A stretch of 64,000 nt of DNA from Pseudomonadota bacterium (GCA_037142195.1 JBAXBA010000002.1:11005-75004); one strand, 5' to 3'. Shown: positions 22,311 to 51,757, numbered from the stretch's first letter. Made by a program: numbers and translations. Notes: generated by a model from the letters alone, not told the origin.

Positions 22311-22505
22311 TAGGGGCAATACTTCAGAGCCAACAAATACATCACACCAGAATCTAAGCAGTCCGGCTATGGGGCGCCACTGAAAGAAAGTTTTTCAACT
22401 AAGCGCGAACTCGAAAATGAGCTTCGTCTCCGGCTTGTGCATTCTTGTGCAATTGGCCTTGCCTTGTGCATTCTTGTGCATTATGATCTCCCTTGTGCAA
22501 TTAGC
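22311..22505. repeat. ~190-bp repeat Q (copy 2), forming the upstream region of the intact COG2865 gene
   Basis: It is colinear with 9223..9409. It contains three cttgtgca(a)tt-type direct repeats at ~22435-22505. Confidence 0.85.
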
Positions 22506-22547
22506 AGTGACGAATTTCTAGAAGGGCATACTGGAAAGGAATCTTCG

Positions 22548-30718: not shown

Positions 30719-31319
30719 GCTGGTACCAAAACCCATTCCTTCTATAATTTGGATCCAAATTCGAAGTCTTCGCACTCCGGGGGGTAGTCTATAGCACCCA
30801 TGATTTTTGAGAGCTTTACAACCTTCCATTTTGTATCCCAAATACAGCCATTGCAAAAACAAGTAAAATATTTATGGCGGCATGGCACTTGTAGGAATCA
30901 CGTGAAAATCCACATCCCTAAGTTTTGATGATTTTTTTAGTCATGAGTGGCCCCATCAAGACTCCTCCAACATCACACGCTCGAAAGTTACTATTTTGGC
31001 CGAACGTCCTCTCGCCCTCTCCGCTCGGTGCTGATTTATCTCGGTCAAGCTCTTCCAGTCCCTCTCCTTGGACTCGCGCGTATCATGGGGGAACAACCAT
31101 TCGGGTAGCGATTGGCAACCGCAAGTTCCCACAATCATCAAAAGATGAACCACCATCAAATGTCCTTCCATCTGATTCATGAAAGAGTTCGCTCCCCCCT
31201 TGGAATCACTCCACCCATCAGAGCAAAACCTGAAAACCTCCATCCATTACCAGAGCTACAGCTTTCAAAGGACTTGGCTCTTTTTTTGGAGTTTGATTTC
31301 ATAATCGACAGTGTCAGCT
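30719..31319 (+). repeat. IS4-type remnant, copy R5, immediately upstream of yeeE
   Basis: It shares its left part with R4 and R1, its middle with R1 (gtcatg.gtg.ccccatcaagactcct.caacatcac.cgctcgaaagtta.tattttgg) and its right part with R3. Confidence 0.75.
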
Positions 31320-31406
31320 AGAGGGCATATAGTGGCCTTAAGTTCTGGGGTGTCATGGAAGTGGTCCGTCAGAGCTGGCTTAGGATCTAGAAAAAGAGGA
31401 GGACAT

Positions 31407-31817
31407 ATGCCTTTTGGATCAGAAATTTTAGGCGGTATTTTAGTTGGCCTTGGCATGGCTATAACGCTCTTATATGAAAGTCAGATTTCAGGAGCGTCGG
31501 GCTATGCAGCGGCGAGCTTAAGACCAAGTCCTACCGGAAGAGCGGAGCTCTATTTTGTCGCAGGTCTCGTTTTGGCAGGGCTGATTTGGCGGTTTGCGGG
31601 AGGTCATCTGAGTGATGCTGATGAGAGTCATCTCGGACTTCCAGCCTGGATTCTAGCTGGGCTATTGGTGGGCTTTGGAGCCCGCTTAGGAGGAGGCTGC
31701 ACCAGCGGACACGGTGTCTGTGGACTTGGCCGGCTTTCTCACCGCTCCCTAGCAGCTGTACTTATTTTTATGGCCTTCGCTTTTTTAACGGCAGCCGTCA
31801 TGAGGATTTATTTATGA
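31407..31817 (+). CDS. YeeE/YedE-family membrane protein (sulfur-compound transport), first half-size subunit
   Basis: The ATG lies 4 nt after AGGAGG. The body is hydrophobic, with the family motif GARLGGGCTSGHGVCG. Confidence 0.8.
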   Translation: MPFGSEILGGILVGLGMAITLLYESQISGASGYAAASLRPSPTGRAELYFVAGLVLAGLIWRFAGGHLSDADESHLGLPAWILAGLLVGFGARLGGGCTSGHGVCGLGRLSHRSLAAVLIFMAFAFLTAAVMRIYL

Positions 31818-32221
31818 GACAAGGCGTCTATTTAGCTTCTGGTCTTATTTTTGGTTTAGGACTCGCCATCTCCCAGATGGTCGATCCTCTCAAGGTAAAA
31901 AGTTTTTTAGCATTAGGGACTCCCGACTGGAACCCAGCTCTGATGTTTGTTTTAGGATCCGCGGCACCTACCTATTACCTGGCTTTTTTATACTTAAACC
32001 GGCGCCAGAAATCGTTTGACGGGAAACCCTTTCCTCATCCGACTCCTAGGCCCATCGATAAAAAACTTGTGGCGGGTTCGGTGCTGTTTGGGATCGGTTG
32101 GGGGATAGCAGGGGTTTGTCCTGGACCAGCTCTTTTTCACTTAGCTTACCTGGATGAGCAGTTTTTTCTCTTTATCGTCATGATGGTTCTAGGCTTCGAA
32201 CTTCAAAGGAAACTCATTTGA
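31814..32221 (+). CDS. YeeE/YedE-family membrane protein, second half-size subunit
   Basis: This 135-aa hydrophobic ORF is coupled by a 4-nt overlap. The motif GSVLFGIGWGIAGVCPGPA is typical of the paired subunit. Confidence 0.7.
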   Translation: MRQGVYLASGLIFGLGLAISQMVDPLKVKSFLALGTPDWNPALMFVLGSAAPTYYLAFLYLNRRQKSFDGKPFPHPTPRPIDKKLVAGSVLFGIGWGIAGVCPGPALFHLAYLDEQFFLFIVMMVLGFELQRKLI

Positions 32222-33027
32222 CTCTAGAAACCTTAGGATATTTAGCCTCCCTGGTGATGGGACTTGTTCTTGGACTCACAGGCGGGGGCGGGTCTCTGCT
32301 GGCCCTCCCTATTTTGGTCTATCTCTTTGGGATCAGTGCCCTCGATGCTACGAGTTATTCTTTAGGGATCATTGGGATCATTAGTCTTTGGGGAGCGTTG
32401 GGAGCCTATAGAAACGGTGACTTAAAACTAGGCCATGCCCTCTTTTTTGGAATTCCAGGAATCATGGGGGTTCTTCTTTCAAGAAGAATTCTTTTACCCG
32501 CGGTTCCAGCTCAAATCCACTTTTTGAGTTCCGTGATTTCCAAAGACTCCCTACTCTTGATTTCCTTCGCACTTTTAATGCTTTTTACCTCTCTTTCCAT
32601 GCTGAAATCTCTTGCTCAAAAAAGAAACTTTACCCCTCCTCCTAGTACCCATCCGGTTGCCATGGGCTACCTGGTGGTTCTAGGTCTTGGTGTCGGGATG
32701 CTTTCTGGATTTGTAGGAGCAGGGGGAGGGTTTTTAATCGTTCCTGCCCTTCTCTCCCTTGGCAAGCTGGACATGAAACAGACGGTCGGAACCTCTCTTC
32801 TGATTATCGGCATGCAATCTAGTTTTGGGGTTCTGAGCGATCTTCATCGCTTAGACGTCTTAGACTTAAAACTCTTTTTAGCGATTGTGTCTTTAGCAAG
32901 CATCGGCATGAGTATAGGGAGCAGGGCCAGGTCTTTTATCTCAGATAGCAAATTGAAGTTTGGATTTGCGGTGCTGGTGCTGGTTTTAGCGGTGGGGATA
33001 CTTTGGGATCAGGTGGGGCGGGTTTAA
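32218..33027 (+). CDS. TauE/SafE-family anion exporter-like membrane protein
   Basis: This 269-aa ORF has the two-fold repeat GLTGGGGSLLALPILVY ... GFVGAGGGFLIVPALL. Confidence 0.8.
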   Translation: MTLETLGYLASLVMGLVLGLTGGGGSLLALPILVYLFGISALDATSYSLGIIGIISLWGALGAYRNGDLKLGHALFFGIPGIMGVLLSRRILLPAVPAQIHFLSSVISKDSLLLISFALLMLFTSLSMLKSLAQKRNFTPPPSTHPVAMGYLVVLGLGVGMLSGFVGAGGGFLIVPALLSLGKLDMKQTVGTSLLIIGMQSSFGVLSDLHRLDVLDLKLFLAIVSLASIGMSIGSRARSFISDSKLKFGFAVLVLVLAVGILWDQVGRV

Positions 33028-34067
33028 GACAAATGAAATTTTAAAGTGCGGCGAATTGCTTCTTCCAATCCAATGTTACACTTTAACCCTAATTCATTGC
33101 GAGCTCTTGCAACATCTGGTAGATATCTAGAAGGATTGGCACCTGGAATTTCTTTGCCAACTATGTCGACTTTGGGACTAAAAGACCCAGAAAAAAAATC
33201 TCTGGTATAGACTTGAGTGACTTTATTTGCGAAGTCTTTCATGGAAACAGGCTCATCATTTCCGACATTATATGCTTCACCAACTCGTCCATTTAGTAAA
33301 ATAGTCCAGAGCCAAACAGCCAAGTCTGCCGCGTACAAATATCCTCTTAGGGCATTGCCATCTCCAGAAACGTTAATATCGCGACCACTTGAAACATCTG
33401 CAATGAAGCTCTCTGCAGCAAACGCACCACCACCAGAAAGATATGGACCAATGAACGCAAAGCACCTTGCAACCTTAACTGGCAAACCATAAATATCCTT
33501 GTAGATAGAGCCCAGTGTCTCAGCTAATCTCTTACTTTCACCGTAAATGCTTTTTGAGTTTAAAAAATCTGGACCTCCATAAAAAGCCTCTGGAATTTTA
33601 TCCATGTCCTGAGACTGAGTCCCGTAAACAGCACCTGAACTAACTAATAGGAATCCTTTTAATTTTTGATCTTTGACTAACTCAAGAATATTTTTAGTAC
33701 CAAGTACTACCGTTTCAAATGTCTTTAAATGATTGTCTAAATTCCTATCTATGCCGACAGATGTTGCGGCATGAATAACATAATCTACTTTCGGGATAGA
33801 ACTTAAATGAACTACATTTTCATTGATGAATACAATATTTGAGCTGACAAACTCAGGAAAATTGTCAACAAATTGTTTTGAATTTCTAGCAACTACGTAA
33901 ACCTTAATTTCAGTCATATAAATCTTATTTAACAAAGATATAGACTGCAAAAGCCACTTTCCAAAAAAACCTGTGCCGCCAGTAATTAAAATCGATACAC
34001 CCATGAGTCGATCTTTAAATGGCATCATTTTTTCTGACAAATAACTAACATCTTCATCAATTAACAT
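33024..34067 (-). CDS. Extended SDR NAD(P)-dependent epimerase/reductase
   Basis: It has the Rossmann motif ITGGTGFFGKWLL and the catalytic YGESKRLAE (YxxxK). It is the last gene of the CDP-sugar operon. Confidence 0.8.
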   Translation of the reverse strand: MLIDEDVSYLSEKMMPFKDRLMGVSILITGGTGFFGKWLLQSISLLNKIYMTEIKVYVVARNSKQFVDNFPEFVSSNIVFINENVVHLSSIPKVDYVIHAATSVGIDRNLDNHLKTFETVVLGTKNILELVKDQKLKGFLLVSSGAVYGTQSQDMDKIPEAFYGGPDFLNSKSIYGESKRLAETLGSIYKDIYGLPVKVARCFAFIGPYLSGGGAFAAESFIADVSSGRDINVSGDGNALRGYLYAADLAVWLWTILLNGRVGEAYNVGNDEPVSMKDFANKVTQVYTRDFFSGSFSPKVDIVGKEIPGANPSRYLPDVARARNELGLKCNIGLEEAIRRTLKFHLS

Positions 34068-34094
34068 TTATAGCTCTTAATCGTTGGCTGTTAA

Positions 34095-35009
34095 CTAGCT
34101 TTCAAGAAAAGAAAGTATTCGAGTTTTTACAGAGCCAACATCCAATTTATGCTCCAAAATAGCATAATCATAACTACCGCAGCTCTCAGTAAATCGATTG
34201 TTTATTCCTATTCGTAATAGACGAGACGAAACAATTGCGGACTCAGCTACCATTTCTGCGACTATAGACCCAATGCCCCCATTGACCGAATGCTCTTCTA
34301 AGGTAACTACAGTTTTTGCAGAACCCAAAATCGTCAATAGTTCGTGCCTATCAAAAGTCGATAAAGAAAATAATGAAATGACAAGCGCATCAATGTCCTT
34401 CGAAACTTCAAGGGCAGTGCTCACCATAGAGCCTGTCGCTATAAAACAAACACTAGACTTTGAAGAATTTACCTTACTAAATCCCCTAGTCATGTCCACG
34501 TCTTGTGGCCCCTTATGAATGGAGGGTTTATCGCTCTTTCCAATTCTTATATAAGAAGCATTTCTTGAATTAGCCGCTGCTTTCAAGCACAAGTCCATTT
34601 CAAACTTATCAGCTGGGCTATAAATATCTAAATTTGCTAAGCTTCTTAACATGGATATATCTTCGGCGCACTGATGACTAGCACCTAACGTGTTATATAC
34701 AAGCCCTGCCCCGTCACCTAACATGATAACGGGCAGATGGTCATAACAAATATCCATTTTAATAAACTCGAATACTCGAGTCGGCAAAAAAGCAGATAAG
34801 CCATAAACGACTACCTTAAAGCCATTTTTGGAAAGCCCTGCAGCATATCCGATCATTGCTTGTTCGCATACGCCCACGTTTATAAATTTAGACGGTGATT
34901 CGCTTCTAAGCCCGTCAAAAAGCGCATAGCCATGATCTCCAGACAAAACGACAAAATCCTCGATGGTAGCCGCCTGTTCAATCAAGAAATTAGATAGGAC
35001 TTGTCTCAT
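34095..35009 (-). CDS. Transketolase-like, C-terminal (pyrimidine-binding) subunit
   Basis: Motifs are FINVGVCEQAMIGYAAGLSKNGF ... LPVIMLGDGAG. A 4-nt overlap couples it to the N-terminal subunit gene. Confidence 0.85.
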   Translation of the reverse strand: MRQVLSNFLIEQAATIEDFVVLSGDHGYALFDGLRSESPSKFINVGVCEQAMIGYAAGLSKNGFKVVVYGLSAFLPTRVFEFIKMDICYDHLPVIMLGDGAGLVYNTLGASHQCAEDISMLRSLANLDIYSPADKFEMDLCLKAAANSRNASYIRIGKSDKPSIHKGPQDVDMTRGFSKVNSSKSSVCFIATGSMVSTALEVSKDIDALVISLFSLSTFDRHELLTILGSAKTVVTLEEHSVNGGIGSIVAEMVAESAIVSSRLLRIGINNRFTESCGSYDYAILEHKLDVGSVKTRILSFLES

Positions 35010-35818
35010 GGTTCAAGCTCGCTCAAACTTCTTTCCAAAGTTTCTTTGTCTAATCTTGAATAATGCCAAACGTTGTTGCTCTCCATAAAACTTATACCTT
35101 TACCTTTAACAGTTCTTGCAACCAGCGCCTTAGGAGTCTGTAATTTACTGGACAATAAGAAATTCAGCGTTTCTTCTATTGATGACTCGCTATGCCCATC
35201 TACTTCGCAGCACTCAAATCCAAAGGCTTCAAATTTTGCTTTTAACGGCTCTAGGTTTAGAACATCCTCAGACCTGCCCATAGCTTGGTAGCTGTTTGCA
35301 TCAACAATTACGACCAAATTTCTAAGGGAATGATGGGCGGCAAAAAGAAAACATTCCCAGGCGCTTCCTTCATTGATTTCTCCGTCGCCAACAATCACAA
35401 ATACGTTTCTTGTCCTAGAGCCCCTCAACTTATCAGCAAGCGCTATTCCAGTGGCCACTGTTATACCATGACCTAGTGAACCTCCGGATACTTCAATTCC
35501 TGGACAATGGACCGAAGATAGTCCTTTAAGTTTGGACCCATCTTGAAAGTAGGACTCTATCTCTTCAGAAGAGACAATGCCTTTTTGAAAGAGCGCTGCA
35601 TAGCAAGCCATAACTCCGTGGCCTTTGCTCAAAGCTAAAATATCGCGATCATTAGATTTTAAATTGTCCTTATCAATTCGGATGAACTTAGAATACAAAA
35701 CCGCAACCAACTCTACCAAAGAGAAGGCACAACCTATATGAACAGAGCTCCCTGAATAGGCCATCTTTAGTATGGTTTTACGCATCAAAATTGGGTCTAT
35801 TCTTGTTTTATCTTTCAT
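35006..35818 (-). CDS. Transketolase-like, N-terminal (ThDP-binding) subunit
   Basis: Motifs are SKGHGVMACYA, GGSLGHGITVATGIA and VIVGDGEINEGSAWE. Confidence 0.85.
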   Translation of the reverse strand: MKDKTRIDPILMRKTILKMAYSGSSVHIGCAFSLVELVAVLYSKFIRIDKDNLKSNDRDILALSKGHGVMACYAALFQKGIVSSEEIESYFQDGSKLKGLSSVHCPGIEVSGGSLGHGITVATGIALADKLRGSRTRNVFVIVGDGEINEGSAWECFLFAAHHSLRNLVVIVDANSYQAMGRSEDVLNLEPLKAKFEAFGFECCEVDGHSESSIEETLNFLLSSKLQTPKALVARTVKGKGISFMESNNVWHYSRLDKETLERSLSELEP

Positions 35819-35824
35819 ATTTTT

Positions 35825-36901
35825 TCAATTTTCCTTGGTAACTTTAATAAACCTTTGGATCTGATCCAATGTAAAGGCTCGGGAGTTCCGATGATTATTT
35901 TGGGTTTCAAGATACCACTTCGCTGTCCAATTCAATGCATCATTAAGATTTAAGGACGGATTCCATCCTAGTTGGTACCTCGCTTTAGATATATCTAACT
36001 TAAGCAACTCGGCCTCATGAAATGAGAGCGAGGAACCGAATGTCACTGAAGAAGATTTATTAAGAATCTCTTGAAAGGTCTCAACTACATATTTAACCGA
36101 AGTACAATCTTGATCGTTAGGGCCAAAATTCCAGCCTTCAGCAAACTTCTGTCCTCCCTCTTTAAAGAGGGACTCTGCCAACATCAAATAACCCGACAAT
36201 GGCTCTAAAACATGCTGCCATGGCCTGACCGCATTTGGATTTCTAATCTCAAGCGGATTTCGCTCAAACGTTGAGCGAACCAAATCAGGGATCAACCTAT
36301 CTTCCGCATAGTCCCCGCCGCCAATCACATTACCTGCCCTTGCAGTCGCAATATGAGTGGAGTTTTTATCTGAAAAAAAGGACTTTCTGTAAGAGCTAGT
36401 AATCAATTCAGCGCAGCCTTTAGAACACGAATATGGATCGAAGCCTCCCATGGGTTCATTCTCTCGGTAACCCCAGGGCCACTCCTTATTTTCATAGCAT
36501 TTATCCGATGTTACTACGACTGCCGCTTTGGATTCAGGACAAGCCCTTAGGGCTTCAAGAAAATTAACGGTTCCCATCAAATTTGTAGAATAAGTTTCAA
36601 CAGGGTCTTTATAGGAATGTCTGACTAGAGGTTGGGCTGCCAGGTGGAAAACAATTTCTGGTTCCGCGGTTTTCATTCTAGACTTTAGTAATGGCAGGTC
36701 TCTTATGTCACCTTCTATGTGAGTTATACCTGCTGAAACATCTGCCAATTGAAATAAGCTTGGGCTTGTTGGTGGAGCTAAAGAAAATCCTGTGACATGA
36801 GCTCCCATCTCTTTAAGCCATAAAGTCAGCCAACTTCCCTTGAACCCAGTATGCCCCGTAAGGAATACCCTTTTTCCTTTCCAGAAACTCTGAGTTACCA
36901 T
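35825..36901 (-). CDS. rfbG: CDP-glucose 4,6-dehydratase
   Basis: FWKGKRVFLTGHTGFKGSWLTLWL ... YSCSKGCAE is typical RfbG/DdhB. The start is chosen at ATG 36901 (MVTQSFW), just after the rfbF stop and 7 nt after GGAAGGA. Confidence 0.9.
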   Translation of the reverse strand: MVTQSFWKGKRVFLTGHTGFKGSWLTLWLKEMGAHVTGFSLAPPTSPSLFQLADVSAGITHIEGDIRDLPLLKSRMKTAEPEIVFHLAAQPLVRHSYKDPVETYSTNLMGTVNFLEALRACPESKAAVVVTSDKCYENKEWPWGYRENEPMGGFDPYSCSKGCAELITSSYRKSFFSDKNSTHIATARAGNVIGGGDYAEDRLIPDLVRSTFERNPLEIRNPNAVRPWQHVLEPLSGYLMLAESLFKEGGQKFAEGWNFGPNDQDCTSVKYVVETFQEILNKSSSVTFGSSLSFHEAELLKLDISKARYQLGWNPSLNLNDALNWTAKWYLETQNNHRNSRAFTLDQIQRFIKVTKEN

Positions 36902-36903
36902 AT

Positions 36904-37668
36904 TTAGTCCTTCCACTTTGCATTGCCGCTGGTCCAGAGGTCTTCAAGATAGTTCTTATCCCTCAAGGTATCCATGGGTTGCCAAAATCCATAATGCTTA
37001 AATGCATTCAGCTGTTTGTCTTTTGCAAGTTTCTCTAAAGGCTCTCGTTCCCAAATGGAGTCATCCCCAGATATCAATTCGATTACCTTTGGATTTAGAA
37101 CAAAAAAACCACCATTAATCCAAGCACCATCCCCTTTAGGTTTTTCCGCAAAGCTTGTAATGCTATCGCGATCTAAATCTAGAGCACCAAAACGCCCAGG
37201 AGGCTGCACTGCCGTTAAAGTCGCCATTTTTCCAGAAGATTTATGAAATTCAATGAGCTTAGCAATATTTACGTCAGATAGCCCATCGCCATAAGTTAAG
37301 CAAAAATCTTTTTCGCCCAGATACTTAGCAATTCGTTTTAGACGGCCGCCGGTCATCGTATCTGCACCGGTGTCTACAACAGTAACTTTCCAAGGTTCAC
37401 TAAAATTTTCGTGTACCTCTCTTTGATTGTTAGCAAAGTCAAAGGTCACGTCAGAGTTATGTAGAAAATAATTGGCAAAGTATTCTTTAATCATATACTG
37501 CTTATAACCGCAGCAGATAATAAATTCATTGATTCCATGTTTTGAATATAACTTCATGATGTGAAGCAGTATCGGCTTTCCACCAATTTCAATCATGGGT
37601 TTAGGTTTAACTCCCGATTCTTCGCTGATTCGAGTGCCGAGGCCCCCAGCTAAGATGACACATTTCAT
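36904..37668 (-). CDS. rfbF: Glucose-1-phosphate cytidylyltransferase
   Basis: [34 protein letters not shown] ... GGRLKR ... [12 protein letters not shown] is typical RfbF/DdhA. Confidence 0.9.
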
Positions 37669-39014
37669 TTCTTTTTGCCCTCACAGAACAGTGCCGCTTC
37701 TAATAATGAATGGCCGATATAAGCAATCATGTCCTTTTCTAAACCAGGCCAAATACCCACAAAAAAAGAGCTGTTCATAATTCGGTCTGTGTTTTTTAGG
37801 TCACCATGAATACTATGTGGAATATGAATATAGGCGGGCTGTTTAAGAAGATTGCCTCCAAACAAAAGTCTAGTTCCTATCTTTTTTTCACTTAGGAAAT
37901 TTAATATGTCTTTACGATTGATGTGAGGATCTTTGAGGGTTAAAAGATACCCGAACCAAGACGGGGTGGCTCCTGGAATTACTTCCGGAATTTCAAAGTA
38001 GCGTAAAGCCCCATTCTTCTCTAATTCCTGAGTAAGAAACTCGAAATTCTCATTTCGTTTCATAATAAAACCGGGAAGCTTCTTGAGTTGAGATAGACCG
38101 ATAGCAGCCTGCATATCTGTTACTTTAAGATTATAGCCAATATGAGAGTAGGTGTACTTGTGATCATAGCCCTTAGGAAGATTTCCTAACTGCCATTCAT
38201 AACGTTTACCACAGGTTCCCTCTTCTGCAGGAGCACAGTAACAATCTCTTCCCCAATCTCTAAAACTTTCAGCGAATTTCTTCACAGAAGGTGAGTTAGT
38301 CATGACTGCCCCGCCTTCGCCCATTGTGATATGGTGAGCTGGATAAAAACTACAAGTAGCCACATCTCCAAAGGTTCCGACGTTCTTGCCATTAATCTTA
38401 GCGCCCAATGCATCACAACAGTCTTCTATGAACCAAATGCCTCTCTTTTTGCAAAGAGCTGCAATACCCTCCGCATCAAATGGGTTCCCCAAGGTGTGGG
38501 CAATCATAACCAGTTTAGTGCGCGGAGTGATGGCGGCTTCGACTGCTTCCAAAGTTACATTATGAGTCGCCATATCCACATCAATAAATCTTGGAATCAT
38601 GCCAAATTGAAGCGCTGGATTTACTGTAGTCGGAAATGCGCAGGCTGGAGTAATAAACTCATCGCCTGGTTTAAGAGCTCTATCTTTAAAAAAAGGGCTT
38701 GTTAGAGCTGAAAAAGCTACTAGGTTTGCACTTGACCCAGAATTAACCAAAAGGCAATACTTGGTGCCAAAAAATTGCGCAAACTTCGACTCAAAATCTT
38801 TGGAAAACCTGCCTGATGTTAGCCACATATCTAGAGAAGCCTCGATCAATTGCCCAAGGTCTTCCGCGTCAAGAACCTTGCCATTGGCAGGAAGGAAATG
38901 CGCCCCAGGCTGAAAATTTTTTTCAGAATTTACAATAGAAAAATATCTAGCGCTGAGGGTCAATATCTGATTTTTAACTTCAGCGGCCTCTTTGGTATGC
39001 ATATTGAATCCCAT
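37665..39014 (-). CDS. rfbH: RfbH/DdhC-type PMP-dependent CDP-4-keto-6-deoxyglucose 3-dehydrase (DegT/DnrJ/EryC1 fold)
   Basis: This 449-aa ORF contains [25 protein letters not shown]...[13 protein letters not shown]. The length and N-terminal extension fit RfbH rather than simple aminotransferases. Confidence 0.8.
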
Positions 39015-39234
39015 TAAAACCTCATACTACAAAATAACTTAACTTAAGAACAGAGAAGCTTCGCCAGTGGCAGTTAGAAAATCAGCTTAAATTGGACTAA
39101 ACATGATCTGGGATATGCAGATGGCATAAAAATCCCAAATTCGAAGCAAAATAGACTGAGCCAGCATGGAGAAATCAAAATTACAACTTACCTAGGTTTC
39201 AAAAAATACATTGCATTCGAAATACAATGACAAT

Positions 39235-40203
39235 ATGCTACCAATCAAACATGCTGCGGGAAAGATAATGTTACATATTACAATACTTTCCCCATGCTTT
39301 AATGAAGAGTCTAATGTTGAAGAGTTCTTTCAAAGAGTTAGTACTCAATTTAAGACCCTAAATGAGTATAGTTTTGATGTATTGTTTATAGATAATTGCT
39401 CTACAGATAATACAGTTCAAATTATTACAAAGCTGATTGAATCGAATTCAAATATAAGGTTAATTGTAAATAGTCGAAACTTTGGTCATATCCGATCTCC
39501 GTATTACGGATTATTGCAAACAGATGCCGATGCGACAATTCTTTTGGCATCTGACCTACAAGACCCACCTGAGTTGATTCCATTACTGCTAAATAAATGG
39601 CGGCATGGGTTTCCCATTGTTAAGGCTGTAAAAAATAAGTCACACGAAACTGCATCTATGTATCTTATAAGAACGGCTTATTATAAGTTGTTAGCAAAAT
39701 TGACAAACCTTGTCCTGACTGAGCATTATACAGGTAGTGGACTCTACGACCGTTCGATAATTTCAATATTTAAAAAAATCAATGACCCTTATCCCTATTT
39801 TAGAGGCCTAGTTTCTGATATTGGATTTGATTTTGCAATAGTGGAATTTACCCAGCCAAAGAGAGTACGGGGACTTACCAAAAATAATTTTTATACACTG
39901 TATGATATGGCAATGTTAGGAATAACGAATCATTCAAAGGTACCCCTTAGAATCGCTACTTTTTTAGGATTTCTAATGAGCATTGGAAGCATATCAATAG
40001 GACTAGTTTATTTTGTTTTAAAGATAATTTATTGGGAAAGATTTCAAGCTGGAGTTCTTCCTATAATGCTCGGGATCTTTTTCTTTGGCTCAGTCCAACT
40101 TTTATTTTTAGGTATTATTGGCGAGTACATCGGAAATATTCACACTCAAGTACAAAACAGGCCGTTAGTTCTTGAGAAGAAGCGAGTCAATTTCGCCACA
40201 TGA
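39235..40203 (+). CDS. GT2 polyprenyl-phosphate glycosyltransferase (GtrB/ArnC-like) with two C-terminal TM helices; start 39211, 39235 or 39268
   Basis: ITILSPCFNEESNVEEF...LFIDNCSTDNT...SDLQDPPELIP is followed by two hydrophobic helices and IGEYIGNI. Confidence 0.8.
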   Translation: MLPIKHAAGKIMLHITILSPCFNEESNVEEFFQRVSTQFKTLNEYSFDVLFIDNCSTDNTVQIITKLIESNSNIRLIVNSRNFGHIRSPYYGLLQTDADATILLASDLQDPPELIPLLLNKWRHGFPIVKAVKNKSHETASMYLIRTAYYKLLAKLTNLVLTEHYTGSGLYDRSIISIFKKINDPYPYFRGLVSDIGFDFAIVEFTQPKRVRGLTKNNFYTLYDMAMLGITNHSKVPLRIATFLGFLMSIGSISIGLVYFVLKIIYWERFQAGVLPIMLGIFFFGSVQLLFLGIIGEYIGNIHTQVQNRPLVLEKKRVNFAT

Positions 40204-41486
40204 CTAAAATTTTTCGGCAAATTTCGCAAAAGAATCTTGGAATTTTGTCACCTAATATGTTTAGGGCTAGAATGCAATTTAAGTTGAATTTAGAAAAAAT
40301 TGATCTCTATAAACTCTTTTTTTCGACATTCTTTGTTTCTTTAACTATTGGATATGTTGCTTATTATTTTTTTTCAGGCTCATTTCAAGACACATCGACA
40401 GTCCCAGCTGGCAAAATTATAGGCGGTGATTTTGAGATAATCGCACGAGAAGGCCACAATTTTCTAATGGGATTACCATTTGTAGGGACCGGCCATCCCC
40501 CGCTTGAAAATATACTTCTCGGCCTATTTAAGCTACTTTTTGGCTCAAAACATGCGTATTTTATATTTATAACTTTTTCTCTGATGTGTTTTTTAGCTTC
40601 AATTTTTATCGCTAATAGAATTACTTCGGCGAAATCTTCATTTCACCTAATTTCATTTTTGCCATTTATATTTGTTTATCCTATTCTTTTCAACCTCGAG
40701 AGAGGCAATACCGATTCAATTTCATTACTATTTATTGTGTTATTCCTATTCTTTTCACAAAAGAAAAATATTTTTTTGGCATCTACAAGCATATTTATTG
40801 CGTACAACCTAAAAATATACCCAATAGTTTTTCTACCTATTTTCTTGATCCATTTCGGTCTTCTTAGGACTTGCGCGCTGGCCTTTATGATTCAGTTCGG
40901 CCTTATGACGTCGGGTATAGAAGGCCTCATAGAAATGATTAAATCTATAGGAGAACTGGCATCAAATCCGTATATATGGGATGGCAATCACTCTGCGATT
41001 TCCTTTGCTACGAAGCATTTTCCAAACAAAATTAACGAAGTTGCAAATTTGATAATTGTAGGCCTCACTATAAGCCTCATCGGGATAACTTTAGATCAAC
41101 TTTTTTACCGAAGAAGGCCTTCGAACCAAAATACGAGCGCCGGTGAAAGAATGGATCCTCTTTCAATACAAATAAAATCTTTGATCGGCCTAATGTTTAT
41201 TTCTTGCTCTTTGATTCCTGGAACAAGCCACGACTATAGACTTCTAATTCAAGTTGCGCCTTGGCTACTAATTTTACCAAACAGTCTCCAAATTGGTGAA
41301 AAATTCAACCAGCAGAGTTGGCTGCAGAATCTAGATAAAATTTGTATTTTTGGAATAACAATCGCAACTTCGTCGCTTTTCTTTCCTAGAAACTTCTTTC
41401 TTGATAAAACAGCATTGCTCTTAGTAATGGCGGGGTGCTATTTAACAATTTACTTAAGTCAAATCCTTCAAAGGAGAGTACAATAA
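40200..41486 (+). CDS. Polytopic membrane protein, possible GT-C-type glycosyltransferase (DUF2029-like)
   Basis: This 428-aa ORF has about 10 or more hydrophobic segments. It is coupled by a 4-nt overlap to the GtrB/ArnC-like gene. The family assignment is tentative. Confidence 0.4.
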   Translation: MTKIFRQISQKNLGILSPNMFRARMQFKLNLEKIDLYKLFFSTFFVSLTIGYVAYYFFSGSFQDTSTVPAGKIIGGDFEIIAREGHNFLMGLPFVGTGHPPLENILLGLFKLLFGSKHAYFIFITFSLMCFLASIFIANRITSAKSSFHLISFLPFIFVYPILFNLERGNTDSISLLFIVLFLFFSQKKNIFLASTSIFIAYNLKIYPIVFLPIFLIHFGLLRTCALAFMIQFGLMTSGIEGLIEMIKSIGELASNPYIWDGNHSAISFATKHFPNKINEVANLIIVGLTISLIGITLDQLFYRRRPSNQNTSAGERMDPLSIQIKSLIGLMFISCSLIPGTSHDYRLLIQVAPWLLILPNSLQIGEKFNQQSWLQNLDKICIFGITIATSSLFFPRNFFLDKTALLLVMAGCYLTIYLSQILQRRVQ

Positions 41487-41648
41487 ATCGCTTTTGCTAT
41501 TCAATACGCAGGTAACCATTGTCACGCTGAACTAAGAATTAAATGTTTTGAAAATCTATGGCTTGACAATTTTTTCAGCAATTCCTAGTATGCCCCTTAG
41601 AAAATATGTACTTCATCTGCTGAAGATTAGGAATTCTTGAGGGTAACA

Positions 41649-43460
41649 ATGTGTGGTTTCTTTGCGACTAATTATAAAGTTCAAGATGTAAATAAACTGT
41701 TAGAAGCTTGTAGCTATCGGGGCCCCGATTCTAGCAGCCATCTGCTCCTTGATGGGATAGTTTTCGGATTCAATAGACTGGCAATTATTGATTTAAACGA
41801 ACGAGCTAATCAACCTTTTTGGTCGAGCTGTGGCAGATACGTCCTGTTGTTCAATGGCGAAATTTATAATTGTGCCGAATTGAAAGGCCATCTCAAACTA
41901 CCCGAGGAATCTTATACCACAAGTTCAGACACAGAAGTATTGATGAATTACCTTATTAAGTTCGGCTTAGAAGGGGCTGAAAAACTAAATGGAATGTTTG
42001 CATTCGTATTTTATGACAAGGAAACTAAAAATATTATTGTAGCAAGAGACAGGTTTGGGGTTAAACCTTTATTTTATTCCGTTGATGGCGATAAGTTTCT
42101 ATTTACTTCTGATCCTAAAATTGCCCACTTAGTCACAGATCTCAAACCCAATCTGCCATTAGTACAAAACTATGTTGCATACCGCTTTCTTCCCACAAAA
42201 TTTAACCTATTTTCTAATTTGGTTTCCCTTCATCCGGGAACTGCTTTACTAAAAACCAAAATCAGTCAGTTTAAGACTCATTGTTGGACTGATTTAGGCC
42301 AGAATCTTGAGAAGAAAGACTACTCCAGCACAACTATCGAAAAATCTACGGAGTTTGTAGAGAGACTTCTAAAAAATTCTTTGATTTCGCAAATGAACGC
42401 TGATGTACCTGTTGGCTTTTTTTTGAGCGGTGGACTCGATTCAAGTTTATTGGTAGCCATTGCAGCCAAAGAATCCTCCGAAAGAATTAGGACCTTTTCG
42501 ATAACATTTTCAGACTATGAACATTCAGAAACTCAATACCAAAGATTAGTATCCTCTAAGTTTAACACAATACATGAAGAGATGGATGTCAGCCATGAGT
42601 CCTACTACAAGTCATACCTAGAATGTACTAGTAAAGGATTCCAACCAATCCTAATCCCCAATTATGTGTGTGTTTATCAACTAGCTCAAAATGCTAAAAG
42701 GAGCGTTAAGGTACTCCTTAGTGGAGAAGGAGCGGATGAGGTTTTCGGGGGATATCATAGATATTCTGATTTGCTCCTTGCTAAACACATTAAGACCATG
42801 AAGTTACAAGGTATTTTTAAAATTCTTGCTTTGATTAAGTCAAGTTTAGGAAGATTTTCTAATATTGAACAGCCAGATGAGTTCTTCAATAGCCAAAAGA
42901 CATACTTTCAAAAAACTGATCAAGTTCATTTTTTTAAACAACCACCGGTTCAATTCACTAATCAGTATGAATTATCTTGGAATGATTTGAATACCGCTCT
43001 TCTCGAAGATCAACAAACTTATATGTTAGGTTTACTTAATAGAGTCGATCAAATGACAATGCTTGCTAGCATCGAAAGTAGGGTGCCCTACCTCGACATT
43101 GATCTGGTTAATTATGTCAACAGCTTAAGGTTTGAGGACAAAGTAGGCATAAGAAGCCCAAAAAAGATTTTATATAATATTGGTCGAACTTATTTACCAA
43201 AAGAAATTCTGGAAAGACCCAAGATTGGGTTTTCAGTGCCCATTTCAGATTGGTTTACCGGGCAAAAATTGATGGGGGAATTGAAATATATTTTACTAGA
43301 AGAGAGAAGCAGGAAACGAAATTTGATCGATTATGTTAAACTGGAAGAAGTTTTTTCCTCGGCTGAGCTAACAAAAAAATATGGTGAATCCTTGATTTTC
43401 CCAATGCTAAGCATAGAGTTATGGCTTAGAAATTTAGAAGATTCACCAATTCTCAATTAG
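41649..43460 (+). CDS. Asparagine synthase (glutamine-hydrolysing)-family amidotransferase
   Basis: The start is taken at MCGFFA (N-terminal Cys nucleophile), 5 nt after GAGGG. Motifs are NGEIYN and the PP-loop FLSGGLDSS. Confidence 0.85.
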   Translation: MCGFFATNYKVQDVNKLLEACSYRGPDSSSHLLLDGIVFGFNRLAIIDLNERANQPFWSSCGRYVLLFNGEIYNCAELKGHLKLPEESYTTSSDTEVLMNYLIKFGLEGAEKLNGMFAFVFYDKETKNIIVARDRFGVKPLFYSVDGDKFLFTSDPKIAHLVTDLKPNLPLVQNYVAYRFLPTKFNLFSNLVSLHPGTALLKTKISQFKTHCWTDLGQNLEKKDYSSTTIEKSTEFVERLLKNSLISQMNADVPVGFFLSGGLDSSLLVAIAAKESSERIRTFSITFSDYEHSETQYQRLVSSKFNTIHEEMDVSHESYYKSYLECTSKGFQPILIPNYVCVYQLAQNAKRSVKVLLSGEGADEVFGGYHRYSDLLLAKHIKTMKLQGIFKILALIKSSLGRFSNIEQPDEFFNSQKTYFQKTDQVHFFKQPPVQFTNQYELSWNDLNTALLEDQQTYMLGLLNRVDQMTMLASIESRVPYLDIDLVNYVNSLRFEDKVGIRSPKKILYNIGRTYLPKEILERPKIGFSVPISDWFTGQKLMGELKYILLEERSRKRNLIDYVKLEEVFSSAELTKKYGESLIFPMLSIELWLRNLEDSPILN

Positions 43461-51745: not shown

Positions 51746-51757
51746 AGCTCCACCTAT

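What the first reader, a model, noticed from the sequence alone, without database searches (positions are those of the whole stretch)
33024..39014. CDP-3,6-dideoxyhexose genes coupled to a split transketolase and an SDR, without the E3 reductase: possible branched-chain or chain-extended dideoxy sugar
Seen: one minus-strand operon runs rfbH(ddhC)-rfbF(ddhA)-rfbG(ddhB)-transketolase N-transketolase C-SDR with tight or overlapping junctions. Established: RfbF, RfbG and RfbH plus the E3 reductase (DdhD/AscD) make CDP-4-keto-3,6-dideoxyglucose. ThDP enzymes attach two-carbon branches to such 4-keto sugars (YerE/YerF in yersiniose biosynthesis). Inference: the split transketolase may transfer a C2 unit onto the 4-keto-(3,)6-deoxy intermediate and the SDR may reduce it. 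That would be a non-orthologous route to a yersiniose-like sugar. No ddhD-like [2Fe-2S] flavoprotein gene is in the window, so the 3-deoxygenation step needs a distal reductase or does not occur.
Basis: partly seen in the sequence, partly recalled or inferred. Interest (0 to 1): 0.55.

Follow-up and report, generated by a model that had tools for sequence, protein, structure and literature searches.

The report
Transketolase-like sugar-branching cassette for CDP-dideoxyhexose
A six-gene operon joins the enzymes that make CDP-4-keto-3,6-dideoxyglucose to a remodelled two-piece transketolase and a reductase, and the same cassette recurs in several phyla, so it probably makes a yersiniose-like branched surface sugar by an undescribed enzyme route.

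Summary
Window 39014..33024 (minus strand) encodes RfbH/E1, RfbF, RfbG, transketolase-N, transketolase-C and an extended SDR, with overlapping or tight junctions, at the edge of a surface-polysaccharide locus of an uncultured 'Pseudomonadota' MAG. No E3/DdhD gene is in the window.

The transketolase pair is not a housekeeping enzyme. It belongs to a monophyletic subfamily ("class III") found in Leptospira, Betaproteobacteria, Alphaproteobacteria, Cyanobium, Alicyclobacillaceae and Bdellovibrionota-type bacteria. Of 17 other class III loci, 11 carry an intact E1 and 13 carry CDP-sugar genes. None of 34 canonical split-transketolase loci do.

The ThDP/Mg core is kept. The sugar-phosphate and aldose-binding residues are replaced (S385A, H461G, D469L, R520K). 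His100, which binds the donor's C1-OH, is always Leu. DXS has Phe there, and the engineered H102L transketolase gains pyruvate use.

Best reading (about 0.55): a YerE/YerF-analogous route. An acetyl unit from pyruvate is added to C4 of CDP-4-keto-3,6-dideoxyglucose, and the NADPH-type SDR then reduces it. A conserved GtrB/ArnC-like GT2 and a GT-C-like protein probably deliver the sugar. Two related cassettes carry an E3-like reductase.

No chemical step was tested. This is a new variant of a known kind.

The parts
37665..39014 (-). RfbH/DdhC/AscC (E1): PMP- and [2Fe-2S]-dependent CDP-4-keto-6-deoxy-D-glucose 3-dehydrase
   Evidence: NF011936 648 bits, above the cut-off of 423. 524 bits to the Y. 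pseudotuberculosis E1 structures 3BCX/3BB8. It keeps the catalytic His (SFYPAHH) and the C-X57-C-X1-C-X7-C motif starting at residue 200.
36904..37668 (-). RfbF/DdhA: glucose-1-phosphate cytidylyltransferase
   Evidence: TIGR02623 451 bits, above the cut-off of 300, full length.
35825..36916 (-). RfbG/DdhB: CDP-glucose 4,6-dehydratase
   Evidence: TIGR02622 493 bits, above the cut-off of 278.
35006..35818 (-). TK-N: ThDP-binding (PP) subunit of a class III split transketolase-like enzyme. Predicted carboligase that carries the hydroxyethyl-ThDP intermediate.
   Evidence: PF00456. Closest structure is 6YAK at 188 bits. H26, H66, D155 and N185 equivalents are kept, but H100 is Leu (motif L-K-G-L) in all class III members.
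34095..35009 (-). TK-C: pyrimidine-binding and C-terminal domains of the same enzyme
   Evidence: PF02779 plus PF02780. Closest structure is 6YAJ at 134 bits, and DXS hits are nearly as good as TK hits. R358, D381, E411 and H473 are kept. L382->H, S385->A, F434->L, H461->G, D469->L and R520->K.
33024..34067 (-). Extended SDR. Predicted NADPH-dependent reductase of the C4 acetyl side chain (YerF-like role).
   Evidence: PF01370/PF16363. TGGTGFFG, an invariant Arg after strand beta2, and S...YGESK are present. An orthologue sits next to the TK pair in 12 of 17 related loci. The closest structures are only UXS or 4,6-dehydratases at up to 97 bits.
39015..39210 (.). Divergent intergenic region between rfbH and the GT2 gene. 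Presumed to hold the promoters of both units.
   Evidence: Position only. The consensus promoter scan gave no more sites than shuffles.
39211..40203 (+). GtrB/ArnC/PgfS-type GT2. Predicted to transfer the sugar from CDP to a polyprenyl phosphate. The true start is probably the ATG at 39268.
   Evidence: PF00535. Full-length matches to PgfS (182 bits) and ArnC (110 bits), both below the equivalog cut-offs. Two C-terminal TM segments. 49-53% identical orthologues lie next to class III TK pairs in L002/3, L007, L008, L090, L092, L169 and L170.
40200..41486 (+). Polytopic membrane protein, GT-C-like. Predicted to be the periplasmic transferase that uses the polyprenyl-P-sugar.
   Evidence: PF09594 GT87 (32.2 bits, cut-off 25) and PF05007 PIG-M (27.3 bits, cut-off 23.4). 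At least 7 hydrophobic segments, and a 4-nt overlap with the GT2 gene. No orthologue was found in the related loci.

Best explanation
The operon makes a CDP-activated 4-C-branched 3,6-dideoxyhexose of the yersiniose type.

Proposed steps:
1. RfbF and RfbG convert glucose-1-phosphate to CDP-4-keto-6-deoxy-D-glucose. This is assigned from equivalog-level matches.
2. RfbH (E1) removes the 3-OH. Electrons come from a reductase encoded elsewhere, either an E3 or a general ferredoxin/flavodoxin system. This is inferred.
3. The two-subunit transketolase-like ThDP enzyme decarboxylates pyruvate (or takes an equivalent non-hydroxylated C2 donor). It adds the hydroxyethyl-ThDP carbanion to the C4 ketone, giving a 4-C-acetyl tertiary alcohol. 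This is inferred from synteny and from the active-site changes.
4. The NADPH-type SDR reduces the side-chain ketone to 1-hydroxyethyl. This is inferred.
5. The divergently transcribed GtrB/ArnC-like GT2 then probably loads the sugar onto undecaprenyl phosphate, and the GT-C-like membrane protein attaches it to a surface glycan in the periplasm. This is inferred.

Functionally this is a YerE/YerF pathway in which the decarboxylase-superfamily YerE is replaced by an enzyme of the transketolase superfamily.
For: Synteny:
- Every genome locus whose TK-N is at least 52% identical to the window's carries rfbF-rfbG-rfbH-TKN-TKC(-SDR). These are Leptospira, Thiobacillus, Rhodobacterales, Cyanobium, Alicyclobacillaceae, Paucibacter and Curvibacter. 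The exceptions are one contig edge and Pigmentibacter.
- Further cases come from metagenome contigs and protein look-ups: L089, L090, L092, L094, L170 and L171.
- In the class table, 9 of 11 class III loci have rfbF/G and rfbH, against 0 of 34 canonical split TKs (Fisher p=6e-8). Class III is monophyletic.

Active site:
- The ThDP/Mg and catalytic core is kept (H26, H66, D155, N185, R358, D381, E411, H473; W-H252 corresponds to H261).
- The phosphate and aldose site is lost (S385A, H461G, D469L, R520K).
- H100 is Leu in all members, and E. coli DXS, a pyruvate user, has Phe at that column.

Other support:
- No extra donor-making gene is conserved in the cassette, so a common metabolite is the likely donor.
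- The paradigm of ThDP branching followed by NAD(P)H reduction on CDP-4-keto-3,6-dideoxyglucose is established for YerE/YerF (PMC9306805; PMC12247030).
- An E3-like 2Fe-2S/FNR reductase lies directly upstream of rfbF in the Paucibacter and Curvibacter cassettes.
- The SDR has an invariant Arg after beta2 and the S-Y-K triad.
- The GT2 partner is conserved.
Against: - No biochemical datum exists for any member of this TK clade, and no natural transketolase has been shown to accept a ketone (PMC12247030).
- H26, the H261 equivalent and H473 are all kept. In transketolase they serve the dihydroxyethyl intermediate, and the engineered pyruvate variants also needed H474S.
- No E3 is present in the window or in 9 of 11 related E1-containing loci.
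- Three class III loci (Pigmentibacter L001, L091, Bacteriovoracaceae L169) have no rfbFGH within 8-10 kb, so the acceptor need not always be a CDP-dideoxy sugar.
- The SDR orthologues are only 31-40% identical to the window's SDR. Their relation to YerF was not tested, and the closest structures are decarboxylases and dehydratases, not ketoreductases.
- No glycan structure is known from any carrier of the cassette.
Confidence: 0.55

Rival explanations
1. Same logic, but with transketolase-type chemistry. A glycolaldehyde (hydroxyacetyl) unit from hydroxypyruvate or a ketose is added at C4, as proposed for the split TKs of miharamycin and amipurimycin. After SDR reduction the product is a 4-C-(1,2-dihydroxyethyl) sugar.
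For: The fold and closest structures are transketolases. H26, the H261 equivalent and H473 are kept. A hydroxyacetyl transfer is what the literature proposes for split TKs in sugar pathways (PMC12247030).
Against: His100, the residue that binds the donor's C1-OH, is Leu in every class III member, while the sister class II keeps His. DXS has Phe there, and the engineered H102L favours pyruvate. The phosphate-binding residues needed for ketose-phosphate donors are gone.
Confidence: 0.15
2. 3-Deoxygenation does not occur in this organism because E3 is missing. The TK-like enzyme then branches CDP-4-keto-6-deoxy-D-glucose, giving a 4-C-branched 6-deoxyhexose that keeps its 3-OH.
For: There is no E3-like gene in the window or in most related cassettes. 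Some TK-containing loci have rfbF and rfbG without rfbH (L089 in class III; L015, L017 and L029 in class II), so 4-keto-6-deoxyglucose is a plausible acceptor for relatives.
Against: E1 is intact, with its His and all four Fe-S cysteines, and is conserved at 42-67% identity across 11 cassettes, which argues for function. E3-like genes sit inside the Paucibacter and Curvibacter cassettes. SpnQ shows that general ferredoxin or flavodoxin reductases can serve such dehydrases (PMC8987622). Only 64 kb of the genome was visible.
Confidence: 0.1
3. The TK pair and the SDR act on something other than the CDP-sugar. They might make or cleave a small acyloin or 1-deoxy-ketose used to decorate the glycan, or catalyse a ThDP-dependent C-C cleavage. 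Co-location with rfbFGH would then reflect a shared glycan, not a shared pathway.
For: Three class III loci lack rfbFGH nearby but keep the GT2 or SDR (L001, L091, L169). The SDR's nearest structures are UXS-type enzymes. Gene order varies (L008, L089, L092).
Against: Translational coupling and a fixed rfbH-TKN junction occur in most loci. The only ketone-bearing intermediate that the cassette makes is the E1 product. No other substrate-supplying gene is conserved.
Confidence: 0.1
4. It is an ordinary split transketolase of the pentose-phosphate pathway that happens to lie in the locus.
For: Pfam and NCBIfam name both halves transketolase, and public annotation calls it 'transketolase'.
Against: Scores are far below the equivalog cut-offs (227 bits against 488). 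H100, S385, H461, D469 and R520 are all replaced, whereas 34 of 34 canonical split TKs keep H100, H461, D469 and R520, with Ser, Ala or Cys at 385. The clade is strictly associated with sugar-nucleotide genes.
Confidence: 0.02

Closest known systems
YerE/YerF yersiniose A pathway of Yersinia pseudotuberculosis O:VI (also ErwE/ErwF for erwiniose and MMAR_2332 for caryophyllose)
   Same: Both have the genes for CDP-4-keto-3,6-dideoxy-D-glucose directly next to a ThDP-dependent enzyme and an NAD(P)H-type reductase, inside a surface-glycan locus. The predicted donor (pyruvate) and the predicted product type (4-C-(1-hydroxyethyl)-3,6-dideoxyhexose) are also the same.
   Different: YerE is a single-chain flavoprotein of the decarboxylase (acetolactate-synthase-like) ThDP superfamily. 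Here the ThDP enzyme is a two-subunit transketolase-superfamily protein. No E3 gene is linked. Orthology of the SDR to YerF was not tested.
Split-gene transketolases proposed for the C-branch of miharamycin and amipurimycin, plus 13 other Streptomyces BGCs (Krug et al. 2024, as summarised in PMC12247030)
   Same: Both are split TK genes inside a sugar-tailoring cluster, proposed to use a keto sugar as acceptor and form a tertiary alcohol. Neither has been characterised in vitro.
   Different: Those are all from Streptomycetes, sit in secondary-metabolite clusters, and are proposed to transfer hydroxyacetyl. This clade is in CDP-sugar and surface-glycan loci of Gram-negative bacteria, spirochaetes, cyanobacteria and Bacillota, and carries His100->Leu. 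The sequence relationship could not be tested because those sequences are not held.
AviB1/AviB2, AlmDI/DII and KbDH-alpha/beta (alpha-keto acid dehydrogenase E1-like, 'aKADH2') branching enzymes of actinomycete antibiotics
   Same: Both are two-subunit ThDP enzymes that add a C2 (acetyl) branch from pyruvate to an NDP-keto sugar, often followed by a ketoreduction.
   Different: They belong to a different ThDP superfamily (PDH E1 alpha/beta), act on dTDP-sugars, and occur in Gram-positive secondary metabolism.
Canonical split transketolase (Carboxydothermus hydrogenoformans, PDB 6YAK/6YAJ)
   Same: The fold and subunit split are the same (188 and 134 bits), as are the ThDP/Mg motif and the catalytic Glu and His core.
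   Different: His100, Ser385, His461, Asp469 and Arg520 are all replaced in the window's enzyme, which also has a different genomic context.
1-Deoxy-D-xylulose-5-phosphate synthase (DXS)
   Same: Both are TK-superfamily enzymes. DXS uses pyruvate and has a hydrophobic residue (Phe) at the His100 column, keeps His473, and has a D-x-A-G-[LI]-V motif resembling the window's G-D-G-A-G-L-V. TK-C scores DXS models as highly as TK models (125.6 bits each).
   Different: DXS is a single chain, its acceptor is the aldehyde glyceraldehyde-3-phosphate, and it keeps Asp at the 469 column and Arg at the 520 column.
ArnC/ArnT and GtrB/GtrC-type polyprenyl-phosphate sugar delivery
   Same: A GT2 with two C-terminal TM helices is followed by a translationally coupled polytopic GT-C-like protein.
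   Different: The donor would be a CDP-sugar, which is unusual for this GT2 type. No GtrA-like flippase was identified, and the GT-C-like gene is not conserved in the related loci.

Membership tests
CDP-3,6-dideoxyhexose pathway (Ddh/Asc/Rfb) | Glucose-1-phosphate cytidylyltransferase (RfbF/DdhA) | tested here: met
   TIGR02623 450.9 bits against a cut-off of 300.25
CDP-3,6-dideoxyhexose pathway (Ddh/Asc/Rfb) | CDP-glucose 4,6-dehydratase (RfbG/DdhB) | tested here: met
   TIGR02622 493.4 bits against a cut-off of 278.45
CDP-3,6-dideoxyhexose pathway (Ddh/Asc/Rfb) | E1 dehydrase with a catalytic His in place of the aminotransferase Lys, and four Cys for a [2Fe-2S] cluster | tested here: met
   NF011936 648 bits. 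Aligned to 3BCX with SFYPAHH. C-X57-C-X1-C-X7-C is present.
CDP-3,6-dideoxyhexose pathway (Ddh/Asc/Rfb) | E3 reductase (DdhD/AscD: 2Fe-2S ferredoxin plus FNR-type flavoprotein) linked to E1 | tested here: not met
   None in the 64-kb window. An E3-like gene is present in the related cassettes L009 and L010.
CDP-3,6-dideoxyhexose pathway (Ddh/Asc/Rfb) | Terminal C4 ketoreductase of the abequose or paratose synthase type (RfbJ/RfbS) | tested here: inconclusive
   One SDR is present, but it has no NCBIfam equivalog hit and its best structures are UXS or dehydratases. No RfbJ or RfbS reference was available for comparison.
Transketolase EC 2.2.1.1 (including split TKs) | ThDP/Mg2+ motif (GDG...N), the cofactor-activating Glu, and the His26/His66/His261/His473 core | tested here: met
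   D145/N175, the E411 equivalent, H27, H67, W-H252 and the H473 equivalent are all present.
Transketolase EC 2.2.1.1 (including split TKs) | His100, which binds the C1-OH of the dihydroxyethyl-ThDP intermediate | tested here: not met
   Leu in all 11 class III sequences, and in all 22 family members of A1.
Transketolase EC 2.2.1.1 (including split TKs) | Sugar-phosphate site (Ser385, His461, Arg520; Arg358) and Asp469, which reads the acceptor's C2-OH | tested here: not met
   The residues are A, G, K and L respectively, and only Arg358 is kept. All 34 canonical split TKs have H461, D469 and R520.
Transketolase EC 2.2.1.1 (including split TKs) | Score above the curated equivalog cut-off | tested here: not met
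   NF004559: 227 bits (TK-N) and 125.6 bits (TK-C), against a cut-off of 488.
YerE/YerF-type branched-sugar module | ThDP enzyme of the decarboxylase (ALS-like) superfamily with FAD | tested here: not met
   TK-N and TK-C carry TK-superfamily domains. There is no TPP_enzyme_N/M architecture anywhere in the window.
YerE/YerF-type branched-sugar module | ThDP enzyme and NAD(P)H reductase genes adjacent to the genes for CDP-4-keto-3,6-dideoxyglucose | tested here: met
   The operon structure recurs in 11 E1-containing loci.
YerE/YerF-type branched-sugar module | Carboligation of pyruvate with the C4 ketone, then side-chain reduction | not testable with these tools
   This needs enzyme assays. Only indirect active-site arguments are available.
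Split TKs of nucleoside-antibiotic clusters (miharamycin/amipurimycin type) | Split TK genes inside a sugar-tailoring cluster | tested here: met
Split TKs of nucleoside-antibiotic clusters (miharamycin/amipurimycin type) | Sequence orthology to the Streptomyces enzymes | not tested
   Those sequences and the papers (Krug 2024; Romo 2019) are not held.
GtrB/ArnC-type polyprenyl-phosphate glycosyltransferase (for the neighbouring GT2) | GT2 catalytic domain plus two C-terminal TM helices, with full-length similarity to ArnC or PgfS | tested here: met
   PF00535. TM segments at 248-266 and 280-298. NF047588 182 bits and NF007986 110 bits over the full length, both below the equivalog cut-offs.

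The most novel reading that the evidence does not exclude
Class III split 'transketolases' would be a widespread, previously unrecognised family of natural ThDP carboligases. They would use pyruvate as donor and the C4 ketone of a CDP-dideoxyhexose as acceptor. That would make them the first transketolase-superfamily enzymes that form tertiary alcohols on nucleotide sugars. They would replace YerE in spirochaetes, proteobacteria, cyanobacteria and Bacillota. Together with a dedicated GtrB-like GT2, they would define a new module that decorates surface glycans with yersiniose-like branched sugars. The sister class II, which keeps His100 and lies next to rfbF/G or DegT genes, would do the hydroxyacetyl version.
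Probability: 0.45. Interest if true: 0.72.

Novelty: new variant of a known kind. Interest (0 to 1): 0.62.

Why it matters
ThDP-dependent C-branching of nucleotide sugars is known from two enzyme superfamilies: YerE-like decarboxylases in Gram-negative LPS, and PDH-E1-like pairs in actinomycete antibiotics. For transketolases the reaction is only a proposal. A 2025 review (PMC12247030) states that the 13 candidates are all from Streptomycetes and that none has been characterised.

The cassette analysed here adds three things:
- a large, phylogenetically broad and sequence-defined clade with a clear predicted acceptor;
- a testable donor prediction, because a single residue (His100->Leu) mirrors a protein-engineering result;
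- culturable carriers (Leptospira, Paucibacter, Curvibacter) for genetic work.

If confirmed, it would have several consequences. Thousands of 'transketolase' gene pairs in glycan loci would be re-annotated. Unusual branched dideoxy sugars would be predicted in the surface antigens of Leptospira and of many environmental bacteria. Biocatalysis would gain natural TK scaffolds that accept ketones and pyruvate.

Tried and rejected
- **Finding the window's genome.** An exact-sequence look-up showed that the window is an NCBI MAG 'Pseudomonadota bacterium', proteins MEI8024934-MEI8024974, on a 94.7-kb contig.
- **Reading beyond the window ends.** Five look-ups to search for ddhD outside the window failed or returned a 1.7-kb Logan contig. 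A distal E3 therefore remains untested.
- **Literature.** Searches combining transketolase with CDP-glucose, rfbH, O-antigen gene cluster, Leptospira rfb, cytidylyltransferase or branched-chain sugar found no prior description of this cassette. Krug et al. 2024 and Romo et al. 2019 are not held.
- **Metagenome scan.** A scan with a subfamily-specific peptide alignment returned only about 10 class III loci. The other 70 were a soil clade of canonical TKs.
- **Promoter and terminator scan of the operon.** The counts were no higher than in shuffles. The operon inference rests on the junctions.
- **Housekeeping TK.** Rejected on active-site and context evidence.
- **Chain extension of the sugar.** Rejected on chemical grounds, because a CDP-6-deoxyhexose has no free aldehyde. 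This is inference.
- **Apparent loss of the Fe-S motif in the Leptospira, Cyanobium and Bacteroides E1s.** This was an artefact of my regular expression. The alignment shows all four Cys, with 4-29-residue insertions.
- **Not attempted.** I did not predict the structure of the TK heterodimer (the tool models single chains only), and I did not compare the SDR with YerF, ErwF, RfbS or RfbJ (no reference sequences were available).

Full report
**1. Observation**

The junctions are -4, -13, +6, -4 and +27 nt, as expected for one operon.

The first three products pass NCBIfam equivalog cut-offs by wide margins:
- RfbH: 648 bits against a cut-off of 423.
- RfbF: 451 bits against 300.
- RfbG: 493 bits against 278.

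The next two are the N-terminal (PF00456) and the pyrimidine-binding plus C-terminal (PF02779, PF02780) halves of a transketolase. The last is an extended SDR (PF01370/PF16363).

The operon lies at the edge of a surface-glycan locus. That locus holds a GT2, a GT-C-like protein, two AsnB-like proteins, several glycosyltransferases, an FnlA/CapE-like dehydratase set, a Wzx-like flippase and an AT3-SGNH acyltransferase. Upstream of about 31 kb the window holds unrelated defence and toxin-antitoxin genes.

Exact-sequence look-up shows that the window comes from an NCBI metagenome-assembled genome labelled 'Pseudomonadota bacterium' (proteins MEI8024934-MEI8024974, contig of 94,718 bp). There the two halves are simply annotated 'transketolase'.

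**2. The E1/E3 question**

RfbH is a true E1. It scores 524 bits against the crystal structures of the Yersinia pseudotuberculosis enzyme (3BCX/3BB8). It keeps the His that replaces the aminotransferase Lys (SFYPAHH). It also carries the C-X57-C-X1-C-X7-C [2Fe-2S] motif. These are the features that a recent review lists as defining E1 and SpnQ (PMC8987622).

No E3/DdhD-like gene is in the window:
- No ORF has a plant-type ferredoxin motif.
- tblastn with E3-like proteins gives E>0.9.
- No Fer2/FNR hit appears in any Pfam scan.

Attempts to read beyond the window failed.

Two observations soften the conclusion that 3-deoxygenation might not occur:
- In the orthologous cassettes of Paucibacter and Curvibacter, a 332-348-aa 2Fe-2S ferredoxin/FNR-type reductase lies directly upstream of rfbF. 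It is BenC/MmoC-like and has the same architecture as E3.
- SpnQ, an Fe-S homologue of E1, works with general ferredoxin or flavodoxin reductase pairs (PMC8987622).

**3. The transketolase pair is a distinct, context-bound clade**

A search of 5.8 billion proteins found over 5,400 relatives of TK-N. The top hits are 53-62% identical and come from Leptospira, Bacteriovorax, Pigmentibacter and many metagenomes.

I fetched 80 genome loci, 80 metagenome loci and six loci through protein look-ups. I searched them with the window's proteins.

Every genome locus whose TK-N is at least 52% identical to the window's shows rfbF-rfbG-rfbH-TKN-TKC, usually followed by the SDR. These are Leptospira sp. 'Mane', a Thiobacillus MAG, a Rhodobacterales isolate, Cyanobium, an Alicyclobacillaceae MAG, Paucibacter and Curvibacter. 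The exceptions are a Polaromonas contig that starts 216 nt upstream of TK-N, and Pigmentibacter, which has TKN-TKC-SDR only.

Counting all 17 non-redundant loci of this clade other than the window:
- 11 have an intact E1.
- 2 more have rfbF and/or rfbG only.
- 3 have none within 8-10 kb.
- 1 is uninformative.
- 12 have the SDR orthologue.
- 8 have an orthologue of the window's GT2.

**4. Active-site anatomy**

I joined TK-N and TK-C from 78 loci and aligned them with E. coli TktA and Dxs. Three classes emerge.

- **Class I (34 loci).** These keep the canonical set H100, S/A/C385, F434, H461, D469 and R520, and 30 of 34 also keep H473. None has an rfb gene within 10 kb.
- **Class II (33 loci).** These keep H100 in all but one member, but most have I434, G461, L469 and K/R520. 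Eight lie beside rfbF/G and eleven beside other DegT-type aminotransferases.
- **Class III (11 sequences, including the window).** These have L100, H382, A385, L434, G461, L469, H473 and K520 without exception. Nine of the eleven lie beside rfbF/G and rfbH (Fisher test against class I, p=6e-8).

In a neighbour-joining tree, class III is monophyletic and nested in class II, and class I is monophyletic.

The cofactor machinery is intact in all classes. This covers H26, D155 and N185 of the GDG...N motif, R358, D381 and E411, plus the W-H that aligns with His258 of human TK. H66 is kept in all but one locus.

HMMER alignments with the only solved split transketolase (6YAK/6YAJ) show the same substitutions independently. 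'LQGHPD' becomes 'LKGLSS'. 'ATHAGLTVGEDGASHQ' becomes 'LGDGAGLVYNTLGASHQ'.

The enzyme therefore keeps ThDP chemistry. It has lost the residues that bind a sugar phosphate (S385, H461, R520) and the Asp that reads the 2-OH of an aldose acceptor.

**5. Donor prediction**

His100 (His102/103 in other numbering) contacts the C1-hydroxyl of the dihydroxyethyl-ThDP intermediate. In class III it is always Leu, within an invariant G-L. E. coli Dxs, the transketolase-superfamily enzyme that naturally uses pyruvate, has Phe in that column and keeps His473. That is the same pattern as class III.

Protein engineers obtained pyruvate-using transketolase with H102L(/L118I)/H474S. [quoted passage not shown] Their S385D/H462I/R521H variant removes the phosphate site (PMC11997939).

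No gene for a special donor is conserved in the cassette. I therefore predict transfer of an acetyl equivalent from pyruvate, not the ketol transfer of ordinary transketolase. This is inference. The kept H26, H261 and H473 leave room for a hydroxyacetyl donor (rival 1).

**6. Pathway model**

The only ketone the cassette generates is C4 of the CDP-4-keto-(3)6-deoxyhexose. ThDP-dependent addition of pyruvate-derived acetyl to exactly this ketone, followed by NAD(P)H reduction of the side chain, is the established YerE/YerF route to yersiniose (PMC9306805; PMC12247030; PMC4753412).

The window's SDR has the Rossmann motif TGGTGFFG, the S...YGESK catalytic residues and an Arg after strand beta2. 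The Arg is invariant in 13 orthologues. This is a signature of NADPH-using reductases (my knowledge). After C4 becomes a tertiary alcohol, the side-chain carbonyl is the only reducible group.

The SDR's nearest solved structures are UXS and 4,6-dehydratases at up to 97 bits. Its assignment is therefore by context.

**7. Delivery**

Divergently transcribed from rfbH is a GT2 (39211-40203, probable start 39268).
- It has two C-terminal TM helices.
- It has full-length similarity to PgfS (182 bits) and ArnC (110 bits).
- Orthologues 49-53% identical sit beside class III TK pairs in Leptospira, Alicyclobacillaceae, Polaromonas, Bacteriovoracaceae and three metagenome or MAG loci.

It overlaps by 4 nt a polytopic protein with GT87/PIG-M hits above the Pfam gathering scores.

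This is the layout of polyprenyl-phosphate-sugar routes such as ArnC/ArnT and GtrB/GtrC. It suggests the branched sugar is added as a periplasmic decoration. This step is inference, and the GT-C-like gene is not conserved elsewhere.

**8. Comparison with what is known, and novelty**

Two ThDP superfamilies are known to branch nucleotide sugars: YerE-like decarboxylases and PDH-E1-like pairs (AviB1/B2, AlmDI/DII, KbDH).

For transketolases the 2025 review states that the idea rests on the miharamycin and amipurimycin clusters. [quoted passage not shown]

The six that paired transketolase with CDP-sugar, rfb, O-antigen-cluster or branched-chain-sugar terms found no paper that links transketolase genes to CDP-sugar or O-antigen clusters.

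The window's enzyme fails the membership test for EC 2.2.1.1 (His100, the phosphate site, Asp469, the equivalog score). It also fails the test for YerE (wrong superfamily). It works like YerE/YerF by context.

I therefore class it as a new variant of a known kind. It is a third enzyme solution for C4 branching of CDP-4-keto-3,6-dideoxyglucose, widely distributed and so far unrecognised. The chemistry is unproven.

**9. Verdict**

- Confidence in the full mechanism is about 0.55.
- The main rivals are hydroxyacetyl transfer (0.15), an acceptor that keeps its 3-OH (0.10), and a substrate other than the CDP-sugar (0.10).
- Interest is 0.62.

Noticed in passing
window 39211-41486 (+): A GtrB/ArnC/PgfS-like GT2 with two C-terminal TM helices is translationally coupled (4-nt overlap) to a GT87/PIG-M-like polytopic protein. 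The GT2 is conserved at 49-53% identity next to class III TK pairs in at least 7 other loci, so it seems to be a seventh member of the cassette.
   Followed up: partly
L009:5741-6739 and L010:5681-6727: Paucibacter and Curvibacter carry a 2Fe-2S ferredoxin/FNR-type reductase directly upstream of rfbF in the same rfbFGH-TK-SDR cassette. It is BenC/MmoC-like and has the E3/DdhD architecture. It was absent from the other 9 E1-containing cassettes examined.
   Followed up: yes
L089:1861-7274: A metagenome contig carries rfbG-SDR followed by two split-TK pairs in tandem, a class II-like pair (41% and 30% identity) and then a class III pair (59% and 48%). No rfbH is present. This may mean two successive ThDP steps or a longer branch.
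   Followed up: no
L012, L015, L017, L029, L031, L054, L063 (and 11 loci with DegT genes): A second non-canonical split-TK class keeps His100 but has Gly461 and, in most members, Leu469 in place of His461/Asp469. It is also found beside rfbF/rfbG(/rfbH) or other DegT aminotransferases, in Bacteroides, Bradyrhizobium, Sphingobium, Ignavibacteriaceae and others. It is a candidate hydroxyacetyl-transferring relative.
   Followed up: partly
L001 (Pigmentibacter), L169 (Bacteriovoracaceae), L091: These class III TK pairs have no rfbF/G/H within 8-10 kb, although a GT2 and/or an SDR is still adjacent. The acceptor sugar there is unknown, or the CDP genes lie elsewhere in the genome.
   Followed up: no
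window 41637-43460 and 43477-45213 (+): Two asparagine-synthase-family genes lie in tandem. The first has the glutamine amidotransferase domain. The second has only a partial Asn_synthase/QueC-like PP-loop region. This suggests amidation of a sugar carboxylate in the same glycan.
   Followed up: no
window 48506-52771 (-): There is a run of an FnlA/CapE-like dehydratase (PF02719 plus PF08485), an SDR with a Polysacc_synt_C domain, a UDP-GlcNAc 2-epimerase and another epimerase-type SDR. This is the usual set for UDP-L-FucNAc or a related 2-acetamido-2,6-dideoxy-L-hexose.
   Followed up: no
window 1766-2635, 7679-8851, 10970-12004, 22437-23897, 26529-27677, 28397-29578: There is a dense set of defence and toxin-antitoxin-type genes upstream of the glycan locus: two AbiEii toxins, three AAA_14/DUF4143 ATPases and a Schlafen AlbA_2/HATPase_c_4 protein.
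   Followed up: no
window 31311-33027 (+): Sulfur-transport-like genes (Sulf_transp fragment, DUF6691, TauE/SafE) converge on the operon. The TauE stop overlaps the SDR stop by 4 nt, which marks the 3' end of the operon.
   Followed up: no
window 40001-64000: G+C falls from 0.40-0.47 to 0.35-0.39 across the glycosyltransferase, Wzx and acyltransferase part of the locus. The rfbHFG-TK-SDR operon sits at 0.40-0.43. This is the low-GC signature usual for horizontally exchanged glycan loci.
   Followed up: no
L002/L003:8393-10000, L006:8429-9961: The Leptospira and Cyanobium E1 homologues are called as 510-535 aa. They have 'EDNCDALG' and 'YPPHH' variants and 4-29-residue insertions between the first and second Fe-S cysteines. 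All four Cys and the His are nevertheless kept.
   Followed up: partly
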